From Escherichia coli (lineage in GTDB: Bacteria > Pseudomonadota > Gammaproteobacteria > Enterobacterales > Enterobacteriaceae), in the NCBI RefSeq assembly GCF_003334315.1, contig NZ_QOWR01000011.1: a stretch of DNA of 64,000 nucleotides; one strand, 5' to 3'. The notes under the pieces were generated by a model that had not been told where the DNA came from, ran no database searches, and saw only the letters and a program-made list of their open reading frames with translations. Below are positions 12,604-63,796 of the stretch, piece after piece (the stretch's first letter is position 1; the number at the start of each line of letters is the position of its first letter). The position numbers and the translations under genes are program-made.

Positions 12604-12619
12604 TGTGAATCGAATCACA
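12604..12619. promoter_or_regulatory. CRP (cAMP receptor protein) binding site of the tna promoter
   Basis: Perfect TGTGA-N6-TCACA (aaaTGTGAatcgaaTCACAatc) about 60 bp upstream of the expected tnaC transcription start. Confidence 0.7.
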
Positions 12620-48178: not shown

Positions 48179-49867
48179 ATGGCAAGTTCGGGCACAACAT
48201 CGACGCGTAAGCGCTTTACCGGCGCAGAATTTATCGTTCATTTCCTGGAACAGCAGGGCATTAAGATTGTGACAGGCATTCCGGGCGGTTCTATCCTGCC
48301 TGTTTACGATGCCTTAAGCCAAAGCACGCAAATCCGCCATATTCTGGCCCGTCATGAACAGGGCGCGGGCTTTATCGCTCAGGGAATGGCGCGCACCGAC
48401 GGTAAACCGGCGGTCTGTATGGCCTGTAGCGGACCGGGTGCGACTAACCTGGTGACCGCCATTGCCGATGCGCGGCTGGACTCCATCCCGCTGATTTGCA
48501 TCACTGGTCAGGTTCCCGCCTCGATGATCGGCACCGACGCCTTCCAGGAAGTGGACACCTACGGCATCTCTATCCCCATCACCAAACACAACTATCTGGT
48601 CAGACATATCGAAGAACTCCCGCAGGTCATGAGCGATGCCTTCCGCATTGCGCAATCAGGCCGCCCAGGCCCGGTGTGGATAGACATTCCTAAGGATGTG
48701 CAAACGGCAGTTTTTGAGATTGAAACACAGCCCGCTATGGCAGAAAAAGCCGCCGCCCCCGCCTTTAGCGAAGAAAGCATTCGTGACGCAGCGGCGATGA
48801 TTAACGCTGCCAAACGCCCGGTGCTTTATCTGGGCGGCGGTGTGATCAATGCGCCCGCACGGGTGCGTGAACTGGCGGAGAAAGCGCAACTGCCTACCAC
48901 CATGACTTTAATGGCGCTGGGCATGTTGCCAAAAGCGCATCCGTTGTCGCTGGGTATGCTGGGGATGCACGGCGTGCGCAGCACCAACTATATTTTGCAG
49001 GAGGCGGATTTGTTGATAGTGCTCGGTGCGCGTTTTGATGACCGGGCGATTGGCAAAACCGAGCAGTTCTGTCCGAATGCCAAAATCATTCATGTCGATA
49101 TCGACCGTGCAGAGCTGGGTAAAATCAAGCAGCCGCACGTGGCGATTCAGGCGGATGTTGATGACGTGCTGGCGCAGTTGATCCCGCTGGTGGAAGCGCA
49201 ACCGCGTGCAGAGTGGCACCAGTTGGTAGCGGATTTGCAGCGTGAGTTTCCGTGTCCAATCCCGAAAGCGTGCGATCCGTTAAGCCATTACGGCCTGATC
49301 AACGCCGTTGCCGCCTGTGTCGATGACAATGCAATTATCACCACCGACGTTGGTCAGCATCAGATGTGGACCGCGCAAGCTTATCCGCTCAATCGCCCAC
49401 GCCAGTGGCTGACCTCCGGTGGGCTGGGCACGATGGGTTTTGGCCTGCCTGCGGCGATTGGCGCTGCGCTGGCGAACCCGGATCGCAAAGTGTTGTGTTT
49501 CTCCGGCGACGGCAGCCTGATGATGAATATTCAGGAGATGGCGACCGCCAGTGAAAATCAGCTGGATGTCAAAATCATTCTGATGAACAACGAAGCGCTG
49601 GGGCTGGTGCATCAGCAACAGAGTCTGTTCTACGAGCAAGGCGTTTTTGCCGCCACCTATCCGGGCAAAATCAACTTTATGCAGATTGCCGCCGGATTCG
49701 GCCTCGAAACCTGTGATTTGAATAACGAAGCCGATCCGCAGGCTTCATTGCAGGAAATCATCAATCGCCCTGGCCCGGCGCTGATCCATGTGCGCATTGA
49801 TGCCGAAGAAAAAGTTTACCCGATGGTGCCGCCAGGTGCGGCGAATACTGAAATGGTGGGGGAATAA
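48179..49867 (+). CDS. ilvB: acetolactate synthase I large subunit (TPP-dependent)
   Basis: 562-aa ORF; TPP-binding motif (GDGS...N) in the C-terminal domain. Confidence 0.95.
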   Translation: MASSGTTSTRKRFTGAEFIVHFLEQQGIKIVTGIPGGSILPVYDALSQSTQIRHILARHEQGAGFIAQGMARTDGKPAVCMACSGPGATNLVTAIADARLDSIPLICITGQVPASMIGTDAFQEVDTYGISIPITKHNYLVRHIEELPQVMSDAFRIAQSGRPGPVWIDIPKDVQTAVFEIETQPAMAEKAAAPAFSEESIRDAAAMINAAKRPVLYLGGGVINAPARVRELAEKAQLPTTMTLMALGMLPKAHPLSLGMLGMHGVRSTNYILQEADLLIVLGARFDDRAIGKTEQFCPNAKIIHVDIDRAELGKIKQPHVAIQADVDDVLAQLIPLVEAQPRAEWHQLVADLQREFPCPIPKACDPLSHYGLINAVAACVDDNAIITTDVGQHQMWTAQAYPLNRPRQWLTSGGLGTMGFGLPAAIGAALANPDRKVLCFSGDGSLMMNIQEMATASENQLDVKIILMNNEALGLVHQQQSLFYEQGVFAATYPGKINFMQIAAGFGLETCDLNNEADPQASLQEIINRPGPALIHVRIDAEEKVYPMVPPGAANTEMVGE

Positions 49868-52338: not shown

Positions 52339-53658
52339 ATGTTGCCGTTTCTGAAAGCGCCTGCCGATGCGCCATTAATGACTGATAAATATGAAATTGA
52401 TGCCCGCTATCGCTACTGGCGTCGGCATATTCTGCTGACCATCTGGCTGGGTTACGCGCTGTTTTACTTCACGCGGAAAAGTTTTAACGCCGCCGTACCA
52501 GAAATCCTTGCTAACGGCGTGCTCAGCCGTAGCGATATCGGCCTGTTAGCGACCCTGTTTTACATTACCTATGGCGTGTCGAAGTTTGTCTCCGGCATTG
52601 TCAGCGATCGCTCAAATGCCCGTTATTTTATGGGGATAGGGCTTATCGCCACGGGCATTATCAACATTCTGTTTGGCTTCTCGACGTCGCTATGGGCGTT
52701 TGCCGTGCTCTGGGTGCTGAACGCCTTTTTCCAGGGCTGGGGTTCACCGGTGTGTGCGCGTCTGTTAACGGCCTGGTATTCACGTACCGAGCGCGGCGGT
52801 TGGTGGGCATTATGGAACACGGCGCATAACGTCGGCGGCGCACTCATTCCCATTGTGATGGCAGCGGCTGCGCTGCATTACGGCTGGCGTGCCGGGATGA
52901 TGATTGCTGGTTGTATGGCGATAGTCGTGGGGATTTTTCTCTGCTGGCGGCTACGCGATCGCCCGCAGGCGTTAGGTTTACCGGCGGTCGGTGAATGGCG
53001 ACACGACGCGCTGGAAATTGCTCAACAACAAGAAGGGGCAGGGTTGACGCGTAAAGAGATCCTCACCAAATATGTGTTGCTGAATCCGTATATCTGGCTG
53101 CTTTCGTTTTGCTATGTGCTGGTCTATGTGGTCCGGGCGGCGATCAACGACTGGGGCAATTTGTATATGTCCGAGACACTGGGCGTCGATCTGGTCACGG
53201 CGAATACGGCAGTGACGATGTTTGAACTGGGCGGATTTATCGGTGCGCTGGTAGCCGGTTGGGGCTCGGACAAATTGTTTAACGGCAACCGAGGGCCGAT
53301 GAATTTGATTTTCGCCGCCGGAATTTTGCTTTCAGTCGGCTCCCTGTGGCTGATGCCATTTGCCAGCTACGTGATGCAGGCAACCTGCTTCTTCACCATT
53401 GGTTTTTTTGTCTTTGGCCCACAGATGTTAATCGGTATGGCGGCGGCAGAGTGTTCCCACAAAGAGGCGGCAGGGGCGGCGACGGGGTTTGTCGGCTTGT
53501 TTGCTTATCTGGGGGCGTCGCTTGCTGGTTGGCCGCTGGCGAAAGTACTCGATACCTGGCACTGGAGCGGATTTTTTGTGGTTATCTCTATCGCCGCCGG
53601 GATTTCCGCACTGCTGTTACTGCCCTTTTTGAACGCCCAGACACCGCGCGAAGCGTGA
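52339..53658 (+). CDS. uhpC: glucose-6-phosphate sensor/transporter-like MFS protein UhpC
   Basis: 439-aa ORF, paralogous to UhpT (organophosphate:Pi antiporter family). Confidence 0.88.
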   Translation: MLPFLKAPADAPLMTDKYEIDARYRYWRRHILLTIWLGYALFYFTRKSFNAAVPEILANGVLSRSDIGLLATLFYITYGVSKFVSGIVSDRSNARYFMGIGLIATGIINILFGFSTSLWAFAVLWVLNAFFQGWGSPVCARLLTAWYSRTERGGWWALWNTAHNVGGALIPIVMAAAALHYGWRAGMMIAGCMAIVVGIFLCWRLRDRPQALGLPAVGEWRHDALEIAQQQEGAGLTRKEILTKYVLLNPYIWLLSFCYVLVYVVRAAINDWGNLYMSETLGVDLVTANTAVTMFELGGFIGALVAGWGSDKLFNGNRGPMNLIFAAGILLSVGSLWLMPFASYVMQATCFFTIGFFVFGPQMLIGMAAAECSHKEAAGAATGFVGLFAYLGASLAGWPLAKVLDTWHWSGFFVVISIAAGISALLLLPFLNAQTPREA

Positions 53659-53699
53659 TGCATCTCACCTTTTCACTTCATATCCGGCAAAACTAAGAA

Positions 53700-55232: not shown

Positions 55233-56999
55233 TTATTCCGTGACTTCCAGCGTAGTGAAGGCAAACTTCTCGCCATCAAATAGCCCCTGACTGGTTAGTT
55301 TTAGCGCGGGGATCACTGGCAGAGAAAGAAACGCCATCTGAATAAACGGCTCATCGGGTAACGGACCGCATTCACGGGCGGCGGCTTTCAAGGCGTCAAT
55401 TTGTTCCGCCAGCGACTGCGCCGTGTCGGTGCTCATCAGCCCGGCAATGGGTAACGGCAGATGACTTTGTACCTGGCCGTTACGTACCACGCACAGCCCG
55501 CCGCCATCCTGAATCACCTGATTGACCGCCAGCGCCATCTCTTCGGCACTGCGACCGATCACCACAATATTATGGCTGTCATGGCTGACCGTCGCAGCCA
55601 GCGCACCTTCATTCAGTCCAAAGCCGCCAAGCAAACCACAAGCCGGAGCCAGCCGTTGCCCGTAACGCTCAAGTACGGCAATAAAGCTCACATCATCGCG
55701 ATCAAAACCATTTTCGCTGTAGACGCTGGAGTGGGAGTGCGTAATCAATTCGTTATGGATGACGTCAATGACCCGATAGCGTTTTCCGGGCGTAAATTGC
55801 AGGGCAAAGTCGCTGGCGGAAACTGGCTGGCGGGCAATGGTGTTGCCATATGGCGGAGCGGATTGTGCCAGTCTCGCCGACTCTTCCGCCTGTAAGGTTT
55901 GCGCATCAATCGGCTCGCCTTTCACCAGTACCTGCTGCACCGTGACCTTACGCGCATCGCTCAACAGGACGATATCGGCCTGCTTGCCGGGTGCCAGTAA
56001 GCCGAGGTGATTCAGACCAAAGTGGCGCGCCGTCGACCAGCTGGCGACGCGATATGCCACATGCAGCGGCACATTGTGTTGTTCGATCAGGCGGCGAATT
56101 AAGGCATCGATGTGTCCTTCATGGGCGATCTCCCACGGGTTACGGTCATCGGTACAGAGCATGCATTGCGGGCTGTTAAATTCGTTGATCAACGGTGCCA
56201 GCGCGTTGAGATTGCGGGCAGCGGACCCTTCGCGGATCATCAACGACATGCCGAGTTGTAATTTCCGGCGTCCTTCTTCCAGCTGATAACTTTCGTGGCA
56301 GTTTTCAATACCCGCAGTAATATAGGCGTTAAGTTCTTTACCACCCAAACCCGGGCAGTGACCGTCCAGCGTCAGGTGGCGAAATGCATCCAGTTTATCG
56401 AGCAGCGCATTCTGCCCGCTAATTACGCCAGGGTAGTCCATCATTTCTGCAAGGCCGGTAACCTGCGGATGGTCCCGCCAGGCGAGCATCTGTTCAAGGG
56501 TAAAACTGGCACCGTTAACATCGCAGCCTTCCAGGGCGGGTACGCAAGAGCTGACCTGTAAGTACTGGTTTTGCCTTGCCTGTTCGGCACAGCGGGCAAA
56601 CCAGGCGAATCCGGCTTCTCCCATCACGTTGACGATTTCATGAGGGTCGCAAATAACGGTCGTCAGGCCGCGCGGCAGGGTAGCGGTTTCAAAAGTGACC
56701 GGCGTCATCATGCTGGATTCAATATGCAGGTGAGCATCAATAAACCCTGGCACCGCCGTTGCGCCGCGAGCATCAATCCGCTGCAAAGCCGGAGCATCAG
56801 CGTATTCTGCGCCAACACCGGCAATGTAACGTCCTTTAATCACAATTGGGCCGGAAATTTCTCCGCCATTGATCAGGTCGAGAATAGAGACATTATCAAT
56901 AATATAATCGGCAACAGCGTCGCCACGGGAAACGGCTAACAATTCCTGGTATTCAGCCCGGCTAATGTGATGAAATTTATGGTTAATAGAATTATTCAT
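55233..56999 (-). CDS. ade: adenine deaminase
   Basis: 588-aa ORF; amidohydrolase metal-binding motif ([15 protein letters not shown]). Confidence 0.9.
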
Positions 57000-57095
57000 A
57001 TTTTTCTCATTTTGATTTTATCAATTTGATTATTATTTATCATAAAGAAACGTCGCGAGATTATTAAAGAATATCCATTAATGTGCAATTGAAAT

Positions 57096-57109
57096 GTGAT
57101 AATTATCAC
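57096..57109. promoter_or_regulatory. perfect 14-bp palindrome GTGATAATTATCAC (CRP-like / Fur-like operator candidate) in the ade-adeQ divergent region
   Basis: Reads TGTGA-N6-TCACT on one strand; sits about 65 bp upstream of the adeQ start in a very AT-rich intergenic region. Confidence 0.4.
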
Positions 57110-57173
57110 TGAACCGTTGTTGTCATTTGTTTTACAAAAGCAAGGGATTAAATCTCCTCCAATGGACAAAAAA

Positions 57174-58508
57174 ATGAATAATGACAATACCGATTACGTG
57201 AGTAATGAATCAGGGACGCTTTCGCGATTATTTAAACTACCTCAGCATGGGACCACCGTCCGCACAGAATTGATTGCGGGGATGACCACTTTTTTAACCA
57301 TGGTGTACATCGTTTTTGTGAACCCGCAAATCCTCGGCGCGGCACAAATGGACCCGAAAGTGGTGTTTGTTACCACCTGTTTGATTGCCGGTATCGGCAG
57401 TATTGCGATGGGGATATTTGCTAACTTACCCGTGGCGCTGGCTCCGGCAATGGGGCTGAACGCCTTCTTTGCCTTCGTGGTCGTGGGGGCGATGGGCATC
57501 TCCTGGCAGACCGGGATGGGCGCAATATTCTGGGGCGCAGTTGGACTATTTTTGCTCACGCTGTTTCGTATCCGGTACTGGATGATCTCCAACATTCCCT
57601 TAAGTTTACGTATTGGTATCACCAGCGGAATTGGATTATTTATCGCCTTAATGGGATTAAAAAATACTGGCGTTATTGTCGCCAATAAAGACACGCTGGT
57701 GATGATTGGCGATTTAAGTTCTCACGGCGTGTTGTTAGGTATTTTAGGGTTTTTTATTATAACCGTGTTGTCATCACGTCATTTTCATGCCGCGGTGCTG
57801 GTTTCTATTGTGGTGACGTCTTGCTGTGGATTATTTTTCGGTGATGTTCATTTTAGCGGCGTCTATTCCATTCCGCCTGATATTAGCGGCGTCATTGGTG
57901 AAGTAGATTTGAGCGGCGCGTTAACACTTGAACTCGCCGGTATCATTTTCTCCTTTATGCTGATCAACCTATTTGATTCATCAGGAACATTAATTGGTGT
58001 AACTGATAAAGCGGGCTTAATAGATAGTAACGGTAAATTCCCCAATATGAATAAGGCGCTGTATGTTGATAGCGTCAGTTCGGTGGCGGGGGCGTTTATC
58101 GGCACCTCGTCTGTTACTGCCTATATTGAAAGTACTTCTGGTGTGGCAGTCGGTGGTCGCACGGGGCTGACTGCGGTTGTGGTTGGCGTTATGTTCCTGT
58201 TAGTTATGTTCTTCTCACCGCTGGTGGCGATGGTTCCTCCTTACGCAACCGCCGGAGCGTTAATCTTTGTTGGCGTGCTGATGACTTCGAGCCTGGCGCG
58301 CGTTAACTGGGATGATTTTACCGAATCGGTGCCTGCGTTTATTACCACGGTGATGATGCCCTTTACTTTCTCGATCACCGAAGGGATTGCACTCGGCTTT
58401 ATGTCGTACTGCATCATGAAAGTGTGCACCGGGCGCTGGCGCGATCTGAACCTGTGTGTGGTGGTGGTCGCAGCTCTGTTTGCACTGAAGATTATTCTGG
58501 TGGATTAG
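57174..58508 (+). CDS. adeQ: adenine permease (NCS2/AzgA family), paralogue of adeP
   Basis: ORF track 57096..58508 trimmed to MNNDNTDYVSNESGTLSRLF (444 aa). Confidence 0.85.
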   Translation: MNNDNTDYVSNESGTLSRLFKLPQHGTTVRTELIAGMTTFLTMVYIVFVNPQILGAAQMDPKVVFVTTCLIAGIGSIAMGIFANLPVALAPAMGLNAFFAFVVVGAMGISWQTGMGAIFWGAVGLFLLTLFRIRYWMISNIPLSLRIGITSGIGLFIALMGLKNTGVIVANKDTLVMIGDLSSHGVLLGILGFFIITVLSSRHFHAAVLVSIVVTSCCGLFFGDVHFSGVYSIPPDISGVIGEVDLSGALTLELAGIIFSFMLINLFDSSGTLIGVTDKAGLIDSNGKFPNMNKALYVDSVSSVAGAFIGTSSVTAYIESTSGVAVGGRTGLTAVVVGVMFLLVMFFSPLVAMVPPYATAGALIFVGVLMTSSLARVNWDDFTESVPAFITTVMMPFTFSITEGIALGFMSYCIMKVCTGRWRDLNLCVVVVAALFALKIILVD

Positions 58509-62825: not shown

Positions 62826-63796
62826 CTAAATATCTTTAATAAACAGCAGGCAAATCATCGCAATACCCAACATCCCTATCGCCAGCCAGAACAACGCATG
62901 GTAGCTCCAGATTTCAACCATAATTCCGTCAACAGAGCCGGCGATAATCCAGCCGACGCGTGAAGTATTTGCATATAACGTTGTCGCAGAGCCTATTTTT
63001 TCAGGCATCAAGTCCTGAAAATAAAGCATGCCGATACCACAGAGAATACCAAGGAAGATGGCATTAAGAATTTGCAATTCCAGCTCAACCGCCGGAGTCG
63101 TCGCCATGAGTACGCTGGCGTAAAAACACATTCCACTCACGATAGCAATGAGCATTAATAGTCGCTTGCCAATACGTTTCATGTAATAGCCTGCGATTAA
63201 CATCATCGGAATTTCCAGACCGGCAGCGATACCAATCATTTCTCCAGCCAGTTTATCGGTTAGATGCAGTTCATCAATAATAAATAGCGGCATATTTATC
63301 ATGTAGAGATTATTCGCCGCCCACATCATTGAACAGACCACAAAAAGTAGCCGCGTATCCCGCTTCCTGTGGGTGGAGGGTAAAATTTCTACGGGTTGGG
63401 TAACGACAGGAATATTTCTTTGTATTGATGGCAAAAACAACCAGACTATCAGTCCGCAAACAACAAATGCGATGGCAGCGGTGAGATACATCACTTTAAA
63501 ACTAAATCCCATTGCCAGTTCATAAGCGAGCGGTGGCCCGATAACCCAGGCAAGCGAGATCTGAGCACGTAAAAATGTACTGAACATGACCGTCTCACGG
63601 CCTGTTCTGTCGGCGTGTTCACGGGCGAGGGCGAACATTTGCGGGTTTGCGGTGGAAGCAAAACTACTCAGAAGTACGCCCGTTGAGAGGAGAATGAAGT
63701 AGTTGCGATTCCACGCAAAAAGCGTGCAGGCCAGCACTCCAAATAAGCAACATAGCAGAATCAGTAATTTACGGTCGCCTTGTTTATCGGAGTGCC
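62826..63796 (-). pseudogene. setC: sugar efflux transporter SetC gene, truncated at its 5' end by an IS1 insertion
   Basis: Minus-strand frame stays open with SET-family sequence (...SDKQGDRKLLILLCCLFGVLACTLFAWNRNYF...) right up to 63796, where the IS1 terminal repeat begins; the SetC N-terminus is missing from the window. Confidence 0.8.

What the first reader, a model, noticed from the sequence alone, without database searches (positions are those of the whole stretch)
57000..57173. Perfect 14-bp palindrome GTGATAATTATCAC in the AT-rich ade-adeQ divergent promoter region
The 174-bp spacer between divergent adenine deaminase and adenine permease genes is extremely AT-rich. It contains a perfect palindrome that reads as a near-consensus CRP site and also resembles a Fur/PurR-like AT palindrome. 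I could not assign it to a specific regulator from sequence. It is a candidate shared operator for the two purine-salvage genes.
Basis: seen in the sequence. Interest (0 to 1): 0.35.

Follow-up and report, generated by a model that had tools for sequence, protein, structure and literature searches.

The report
Known CRP site between adeD and adeQ
The palindrome is a real, well-conserved binding site for the E. coli catabolite regulator cAMP-CRP, shared by the divergent adenine deaminase and adenine permease genes, and it has already been published, so it is ordinary.

Summary
GTGATAATTATCAC lies at 57096..57109 in the 174-bp, 27% GC spacer between adeD (minus strand) and adeQ (plus strand) of E. 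coli. A perfect 14-bp palindrome is not unusual by itself: 3 are seen in the window against 4.1 expected. What matters is the 16-mer TGTGATAATTATCACT (57095..57110). It has the same TGTGA-N6-TCACT core as the lac CRP site. It scores 15.5 bits on a CRP matrix, second best in the window after the tnaC site, and only 43 of 100,000 spacer shuffles reach that score. In Escherichia, Citrobacter, Kluyvera and Cedecea the half-sites TGTGAT/ATCACT are kept while the central four bases vary (AATT, TGCA, TGTA, AACT). That pattern fits CRP and removes the Fur-like GATAAT. Fur, PurR, FNR, PlaR and H-NS motif matches are at chance level. The site is already published. Shimada et al. 2011 list this exact box for yicO<>ade from genomic SELEX. 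A 2021 study lists adeD and adeQ as Crp-activated, based on a crp deletion and gel shifts. My own inference is that conserved -10-like hexamers about 30 bp on each side suggest two back-to-back class II promoters. No start-site data were found to test this. Verdict: already known, low interest.

The parts
57096..57109 (.).
   Evidence: exact and unique in the window.
57092..57113 (.). cAMP-CRP binding site. The 22-mer is aaaTGTGATaattATCACTgaa, the 16-bp core is 57095..57110, and the dyad centre is 57102.5 (NC_000913.3 position 3843860.5).
   Evidence: Matrix score 15.47 bits against 15.36 for lac; second best in the window. Half-sites are conserved with a variable centre in 4 genera. It equals the box AGTGATAATTATCACA listed for yicO<>ade in Shimada 2011 Table S3. 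At least 99% identical in 5340 of 5426 E. coli genomes.
57068..57073 (-). Predicted -10 hexamer of adeD (TATTCT, preceded by G at -14). It places CRP at about -41.5 and the start site near 57061. This is an inference.
   Evidence: the hexamer sits 30-35 bp from the CRP centre in all 10 orthologues. It reads TAnnnT with T1, A2 and T6 invariant and the interior variable. No start-site data were found.
57133..57138 (+). Predicted weak -10 hexamer of adeQ (TACAAA). It places CRP at about -42.5 and the start site near 57145. This is an inference.
   Evidence: TAcAAA, TAAAAA or TAAAAG begins 30-31 bp from the CRP centre in all orthologues. It lacks the usual T at position 6, as expected for an activator-dependent promoter.
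57000..57173 (.). The 174-bp, 27% GC divergent control region between adeD and adeQ
   Evidence: Spacer length is 172-176 bp in Escherichia, Citrobacter, Kluyvera and Cedecea.
55233..56999 (-). adeD (ade/yicP), adenine deaminase, 588 aa
57174..58508 (+). adeQ (yicO), adenine permease, 444 aa

Best explanation
The palindrome is the core of one high-affinity cAMP-CRP site that serves both divergent genes. When glucose is scarce and cAMP is high, a CRP dimer binds TGTGAT-N4-ATCACT and activates transcription of both adeQ (adenine uptake) and adeD (adenine to hypoxanthine plus ammonia). This puts adenine salvage and catabolism under catabolite control, like many nucleoside genes. CRP binding and crp-dependent expression are shown in published work. 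My own inference concerns geometry. The dimer sits about 30 bp from a conserved -10-like hexamer on each side, at roughly -41.5 for adeD and -42.5 for adeQ. That would make two back-to-back class II promoters sharing one CRP, working against the H-NS silencing reported for ade.
For: The sequence has the same TGTGA-N6-TCACT core as lac, plus the preferred T and A flanking bases. It scores 15.47 bits, ranking 13th against the 45 sites used to build the matrix. The same matrix recovers the listed uhpT site (12.0 bits) and, as its top hit, what I take to be the tnaC site. Only the CRP core beats chance among 12 regulator consensus sequences tested. In 13 orthologous spacers from 4 genera the half-sites stay at a fixed place while the central 4 bp vary. 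The surrounding 40-mer is essentially invariant in E. coli. Shimada 2011 found a genomic SELEX peak at yicO<>ade with this exact box. A 2021 study lists adeD and adeQ as 'Crp activation' in its table of validated targets, based on crp-deletion RNA-seq and gel shifts with Crp-cAMP. For geometry, an invariant TAnnnT lies at 30-35 bp on the ade side and TA(c/a)AA(a/g) at 30/31 on the adeQ side. A single CRP acting on divergent promoters is described as common by Shimada 2011.
Against: I found no transcription start sites for either gene, so the class II placement rests on predicted hexamers only. A better -10 match on the ade strand, AATAAT at 38/39 bp, would put CRP at about -49.5, which is not a canonical position. 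A fully conserved extended -10-like TGATAAAAT at 57023..57015 would put it near -94. The adeQ hexamer lacks T at position 6. The held supplements of the Crp ChIP-exo paper do not mention these genes. In wild-type E. coli ade is reported to be cryptic and H-NS-silenced (Petersen 2002, cited), so CRP activation may be small under laboratory conditions. The supplementary data of the 2021 paper, which give its predicted site, were not available.
Confidence: 0.88

Rival explanations
1. It is a Fur box, giving iron-dependent repression. AdeD is a metal-dependent enzyme.
For: The palindrome contains GATAAT and ATTATC, and TGATAAT and ATTATCA are each perfect 7-mer Fur half-sites.
Against: The half-sites overlap by 2 bp instead of being separated by 1 bp. 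The best matches are 10 of 14 (7-1-7 motif) and 12 of 19 (19-mer, elsewhere in the spacer), reached by 38% and 55% of spacer shuffles. Citrobacter and Kluyvera orthologues read GTGATTGCAATCAC, with no GATAAT. The 2021 study files adeD and adeQ under Crp, not Fur.
Confidence: 0.02
2. It is a PurR operator, giving purine repression of salvage genes.
For: The genes act in purine metabolism, and PurR boxes are 16-bp palindromes.
Against: The best match to ACGCAAACGTTTGCGT is 10 of 16 at 57108..57123, outside the palindrome. 17% of shuffles do as well. The palindrome has no central CG and no GCAAAC arm.
Confidence: 0.01
3. The palindrome is just AT-rich DNA that serves as H-NS binding or nucleation material, or it is a chance palindrome with no specific reader.
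For: The spacer is 27% GC. ade is reported to be silenced by H-NS and activated by IS insertions (Petersen 2002, cited). Perfect 14-bp palindromes occur at the chance rate.
Against: The H-NS motif match is at chance level and lies elsewhere, 8 of 10 at 57015..57024. The G and C bases of the half-sites, not the AT-rich centre, are what is conserved across genera. Published work reports specific CRP binding. H-NS silencing of the region and a CRP site within it are compatible.
Confidence: 0.04
4. It is the target of another regulator, either FNR (TTGAT-N4-ATCAA) or PlaR/YiaJ, which gave a genomic SELEX peak in this spacer.
For: GTGAT-AATT-ATCAC matches the FNR consensus at 8 of 10 positions. The PlaR study counts adeQ and adeD among its SELEX targets. 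TGAAAT and TGAAC flank the site.
Against: The two mismatches to FNR are the G/C pair that, from general knowledge, distinguishes CRP sites from FNR sites. The best PlaR-box match (ATnTGAAACnnnGTTCAnTT) is 10 of 15, at chance level. The flanking TGAA elements are direct repeats, not inverted ones.
Confidence: 0.03

Closest known systems
lac promoter CRP (CAP) site, TGTGAGTTAGCTCACT
   Same: It has the identical 10-base core TGTGA-N6-TCACT and almost the same matrix score, 15.36 against 15.47 bits. It is a canonical site, not a Sxy-dependent CRP-S site.
   Different: From general knowledge, lac is a class I site at -61.5 serving one promoter. This site lies between two divergent genes and is predicted, not shown, to sit at class II distance from both.
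Single CRP sites shared by divergent promoters (El-Robh and Busby model system; gcd-hpt, araBAD-araC, fruBKA-setB and others listed by Shimada 2011)
   Same: One CRP dimer sits in a short intergenic spacer and both flanking genes depend on CRP.
   Different: For adeD and adeQ the start sites and promoter classes have not been mapped here. The locus is also subject to H-NS silencing.
CRP control of nucleoside and nucleobase genes (deo, cdd, udp, tsx, nupC, nupG)
   Same: Catabolite control of uptake and breakdown of nucleic-acid components. Some of these (cdd, tsx, nupC, udp, nupG) appear as CRP targets in Shimada 2011.
   Different: Many of those promoters also use CytR with tandem CRP sites (general knowledge). 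Here there is a single CRP site and no conserved CytR octamer; the best match is 6 of 8, at chance level.

Membership tests
cAMP-CRP binding site (canonical) | Match to the TGTGA-N6-TCACA core and a matrix score in the range of known sites | tested here: met
   9 of 10 core positions and 15.47 bits. The 45 sites used to build the matrix have a median of 12.9 bits, and lac scores 15.36.
cAMP-CRP binding site (canonical) | Evolutionary pattern of a dimeric site: both half-sites conserved and the central spacer free to vary | tested here: met
   TGTGAT-(AATT/TGCA/TGTA/AACT)-ATCACT in Escherichia, Citrobacter, Kluyvera and Cedecea. One exception is the E. albertii type strain, which reads TGTTAT.
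cAMP-CRP binding site (canonical) | cAMP-dependent binding of CRP protein to the DNA | not testable with these tools
   Published: a genomic SELEX peak with this box and a Crp-cAMP gel shift of the promoter fragments.
cAMP-CRP binding site (canonical) | Expression of the adjacent genes depends on crp | not testable with these tools
   Published: adeD and adeQ are classed as 'Crp activation' from wild type versus crp-deletion RNA-seq.
Class II CRP-dependent promoter | Site centred near -41.5 relative to a mapped transcription start | tested here: inconclusive
   Conserved -10-like hexamers lie 30-35 bp (ade side) and 30/31-36 bp (adeQ side) from the centre. No start-site data were found, and competing -10 candidates exist.
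Fur box | 19-bp GATAATGATAATCATTATC, or 7-1-7 TGATAATnATTATCA, in correct register | tested here: not met
   12 of 19 and 10 of 14, both at chance level. The half-sites overlap by 2 bp, and the motif is lost in orthologues.
PurR box | 16-bp palindrome ACGCAAACGTTTGCGT with a central CG | tested here: not met
   The best match is 10 of 16, outside the palindrome and at chance level.
FNR site | TTGAT-N4-ATCAA with T at the discriminating first position | tested here: not met
   The site reads GTGAT-N4-ATCAC, with both discriminating positions of the CRP type.
PlaR (YiaJ) box | ATnTGAAACnnnGTTCAnTT inverted repeat | tested here: not met
   The best match in the spacer is 10 of 15, at chance level.

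The most novel reading that the evidence does not exclude
One CRP dimer sits almost exactly midway between two back-to-back class II promoters, at -41.5 for adeD and -42.5 for adeQ. The two polymerases would then compete for the same activator and the same DNA. In this reading CRP acts mainly by countering H-NS silencing. The adjacent 39-bp block at 57000..57038, which is more conserved than the coding DNA, would be the operator or leader for a still unidentified specific regulator of adenine deaminase.
Probability: 0.3. Interest if true: 0.3.

Novelty: already known. Interest (0 to 1): 0.08.

Why it matters
It matters little beyond annotation. The site places adenine uptake and deamination under catabolite control in E. 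coli and its close relatives, which is already in the literature. Two modest open points remain. The first is the exact promoter geometry, possibly two class II promoters sharing one CRP. The second is how CRP activation interacts with the reported H-NS silencing of the cryptic ade gene. The neighbouring invariant block next to the ade start codon is the only unexplained item.

Tried and rejected
- **Palindrome as a statistical signal:** rejected. There are 3 perfect palindromes of 14 bp or more in the window against 4.1 expected.
- **Other regulator motifs:** Fur, PurR, FNR, the H-NS motif, PlaR, CytR, IHF, Nac and Lrp consensus scans were all at chance level in this AT-rich spacer.
- **Rfam scan of 56500..57600:** no RNA family matched, so there is no riboswitch.
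- **Upstream ORF:** a 15-codon ORF ([15 protein letters not shown]) has a stop codon that overlaps the ade ATG. It is rejected as a conserved peptide because a 1-nt indel breaks the frame in two Escherichia lineages and the first ATG is absent in Kluyvera and Cedecea.
- **In-frame ATG at 57162 as the adeQ start:** rejected, because it is out of frame in Citrobacter R56. The conserved TGGA there looks like the ribosome-binding site.
- **Start-site tables:** the supplements of three genome-wide studies held nothing for this locus and a fourth paper is not held. The one exception was an antisense intragenic entry in ade.
- **Papers not held:** Petersen 2002 (JBC) and Papakostas 2013 could not be read.
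- **Crp ChIP-exo paper:** its held supplements do not mention these genes.

Full report
**Observation.** The window is E. coli chromosome. A 401-bp stretch around the finding matches 5403 of 5426 complete E. coli genomes, and the best matches are 100% identical. The annotated gene order there is uhpT, adeD (adenine deaminase, minus strand), adeQ (adenine permease, plus strand), yicN, nepI. In the window, adeD is 55233..56999 on the minus strand and adeQ starts at ATG 57174. The spacer 57000..57173 is 174 bp and 27% GC. GTGATAATTATCAC lies at 57096..57109 and is unique in the window even with 2 mismatches allowed. Window position p corresponds to NC_000913.3 position 3900963 minus p, so the dyad centre 57102.5 is K-12 position 3843860.5.

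**Is it more than chance?** As a bare palindrome, no. The window has 3 perfect palindromes of 14 bp or more against 4.1 expected from local-composition shuffles. 3.8% of shuffles of the spacer alone contain one. As a CRP motif, yes.
- I built a symmetrised matrix from 45 16-mers listed for RegulonDB-known CRP targets in Table S3 of Shimada et al. 2011. This site was not among them.
- TGTGATAATTATCACT (57095..57110) scores 15.47 bits. The lac site scores 15.36, the median of the 45 input sites is 12.9, and the site ranks 13th against those 45.
- It is the second best site in all 64 kb. The best hit, at 12604, I take to be the tnaC promoter site from its position and from memory of that sequence. 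The fifth best, at 53654, is the uhpT site listed in Table S3.
- Only 43 of 100,000 shuffles of the spacer reach its score. Across the window, 0.148 sites of 15.4 bits or more are expected and 2 are seen.

**Which regulator?** I compared the spacer with consensus sequences for Fur (19-mer and 7-1-7), PurR, CRP, FNR, the H-NS high-affinity motif, PlaR, CytR, IHF, Nac and Lrp. Shuffles of the spacer served as the control.
- Only the CRP core stands out, at 9 of 10 positions, reached by 9 of 2000 shuffles.
- The Fur resemblance is superficial. TGATAAT and ATTATCA are each perfect, but they overlap by 2 bp instead of being separated by 1 bp. The overall 10 of 14 match is reached by 38% of shuffles.
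- The best PurR match, 10 of 16, is outside the palindrome, and the palindrome has no central CG.
- The site matches FNR at 8 of 10, but the two mismatches are the G/C positions that, from general knowledge, discriminate CRP from FNR.
- Rfam finds no RNA family in 56500..57600.

**Comparative evidence.** A scan of one genome per species with the AdeD protein returned orthologous loci. In 13 of them, from Escherichia, Citrobacter, Kluyvera and Cedecea, adeQ is divergent from adeD across a spacer of 172-176 bp.
- In 12 of the 13 the best CRP-matrix hit is at the same place and scores 15.5-17.0 bits.
- The half-sites TGTGAT and ATCACT are kept while the central four bases vary: AATT, AACT, TGCA, TGTA. 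A dimeric CRP site should evolve in this way. The TGCA and TGTA forms also remove the Fur-like GATAAT.
- The exception is the E. albertii type strain, which reads TGTTAT and scores 9.7 bits.
- Morganella and a Serratia species lack the site.
- Within E. coli, the 40-mer 57083..57122 is at least 99% identical in 5340 of 5426 genomes.

**Already published.**
- Shimada et al. 2011 (PMC3105977) list yicO<>ade among divergent gene pairs with a cAMP-CRP genomic SELEX peak. Their Table S3 gives the box AGTGATAATTATCACA at 3.84188 Mb. That is the reverse complement of 57095..57110, in the older K-12 coordinate system.
- A 2021 study (PMC8085971) compared wild type on seven carbon sources with a crp deletion and tested promoter fragments by gel shift with Crp and cAMP. 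[quoted passage not shown]
- ade is also known as a cryptic gene silenced by H-NS and activated by IS insertions. This is Petersen et al. 2002, which is not held in the library but is cited.
- A PlaR (YiaJ) genomic SELEX study also counts adeQ and adeD among its targets. I find no PlaR box better than chance.

**How it most likely works.** Published work shows that cAMP-CRP binds here and that both genes need crp for full expression. The following is my inference from the sequences.
- Reading outward from the dyad centre on the ade strand, all ten orthologues compared carry a hexamer at positions 30-35. It reads TATTCT, TAAACT, TAAAGT, TAGACT, TAAAAT or TAAGCT.
- T1, A2 and T6 are invariant, the interior varies, and a G lies two bases upstream. 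This looks like a -10 element that places CRP at -41.5 and the start near 57061.
- On the adeQ strand, TACAAA, TAAAAA or TAAAAG begins at position 30 or 31. That places CRP at about -42.5 and the start near 57145. This hexamer lacks T6, so the promoter would be weak without an activator.
- Together these suggest two back-to-back class II promoters sharing one CRP dimer. Shared single CRP sites are described as common, and a model system exists from El-Robh and Busby.
- There are caveats. No start-site data were found. Other -10 candidates exist on the ade strand. AATAAT at 38/39 bp would place CRP at -49.5. TATGAT at 57044..57039 would give about -70.5. The fully conserved TGATAAAAT at 57023..57015 would give about -94.
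- I put the class II/II geometry at about 0.3-0.45, and CRP binding with dual activation at about 0.9.

**Other things seen.**
- The 39 bp next to the ade start codon (57000..57038) are 85-90% invariant across the four genera. The adjacent coding DNA is 35-60% invariant, and the rest of the spacer is much lower.
- On the ade strand this block reads AATCAAATTGATAAAATCAAAATGAGAAAAAT. It contains the 13-bp inverted repeat TTGAT-AAA-ATCAA. In Cedecea, GATAAAATCAAAAT is tandemly duplicated.
- A 15-codon upstream ORF that ends on the ade ATG is not conserved in frame.
- A second fully invariant 20-bp stretch lies inside ade at 56890..56909. I have no tested explanation for either block.

**Verdict.** The Fur and PurR resemblances are not supported. 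The site is already known, so interest is low.

Noticed in passing
window 57000..57038: The block directly upstream of the adeD start codon is 85-90% invariant across Escherichia, Citrobacter, Kluyvera and Cedecea. That is more conserved than the flanking coding DNA (35-60% invariant) and far more than the rest of the spacer. On the ade strand it contains the inverted repeat TTGAT-AAA-ATCAA and an extended -10-like TGATAAAAT. In Cedecea the unit GATAAAATCAAAAT is tandemly duplicated. None of the regulator consensus sequences tested matched it above chance.
   Followed up: partly
window 56890..56909 (inside adeD, codons about 31-37): A 20-bp AT-rich stretch, ACATTATCAATAATATAATC, is 100% invariant in 10 sequences from 4 genera, including at synonymous positions. 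It shares TTATCAAT with the leader block. It might relate to the H-NS silencing reported for ade, but this was not tested.
   Followed up: no
window 57043..56996, minus strand: A 15-codon upstream ORF ([15 protein letters not shown]) has a TGA stop that overlaps the adeD ATG as ATGA. A 1-nt indel breaks the frame in Escherichia sp. E1V33 and E. whittamii, and the first ATG is missing in Kluyvera and Cedecea. It is probably not a conserved peptide.
   Followed up: yes
L005 (E. albertii NBRC 107761), orthologous site: The CRP half-site reads TGTTAT instead of TGTGAT. The G-to-T change is at a key contact position and drops the matrix score from 15.5 to 9.7 bits, which suggests CRP control is weakened in that strain.
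   Followed up: no
window 12604..12619, 53654..53669, 63480..63495, 49712..49727: These are the other strong CRP-matrix hits. TGTGAATCGAATCACA (17.6 bits) maps to about K-12 position 3888351 and is, from memory, the tnaC promoter site. CGTGATGCATCTCACC (12.0 bits) equals the uhpT site in Shimada Table S3. GGTGAGATACATCACT (13.0 bits) appears to lie inside yicL. TGTGATTTGAATAACG (12.4 bits) was not examined.
   Followed up: partly
window 57000..57173: A PlaR (YiaJ) genomic SELEX study counts adeQ and adeD among its targets (PMC6958661). However, the spacer has no PlaR box better than chance, at 10 of 15. TGAAAT (57091..57096) and TGAAC (57110..57114) flank the CRP site as direct repeats.
   Followed up: partly
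L001 4618..6100 (E. coli E2863): In a strain whose spacer is 100% identical to the window, adeD is annotated as a frameshifted pseudogene. In the window it is an intact 588-aa ORF. This would fit decay of a gene that is reported to be cryptic.
   Followed up: no
window 57096..58508 and 57162: The ORF list gives a 470-aa ORF that starts at the GTG of the palindrome, which is a mechanical artefact. An in-frame ATG at 57162 lies 4 codons upstream of the annotated adeQ start, but it is out of frame in Citrobacter R56. The conserved TGGA there looks like the ribosome-binding site.
   Followed up: yes
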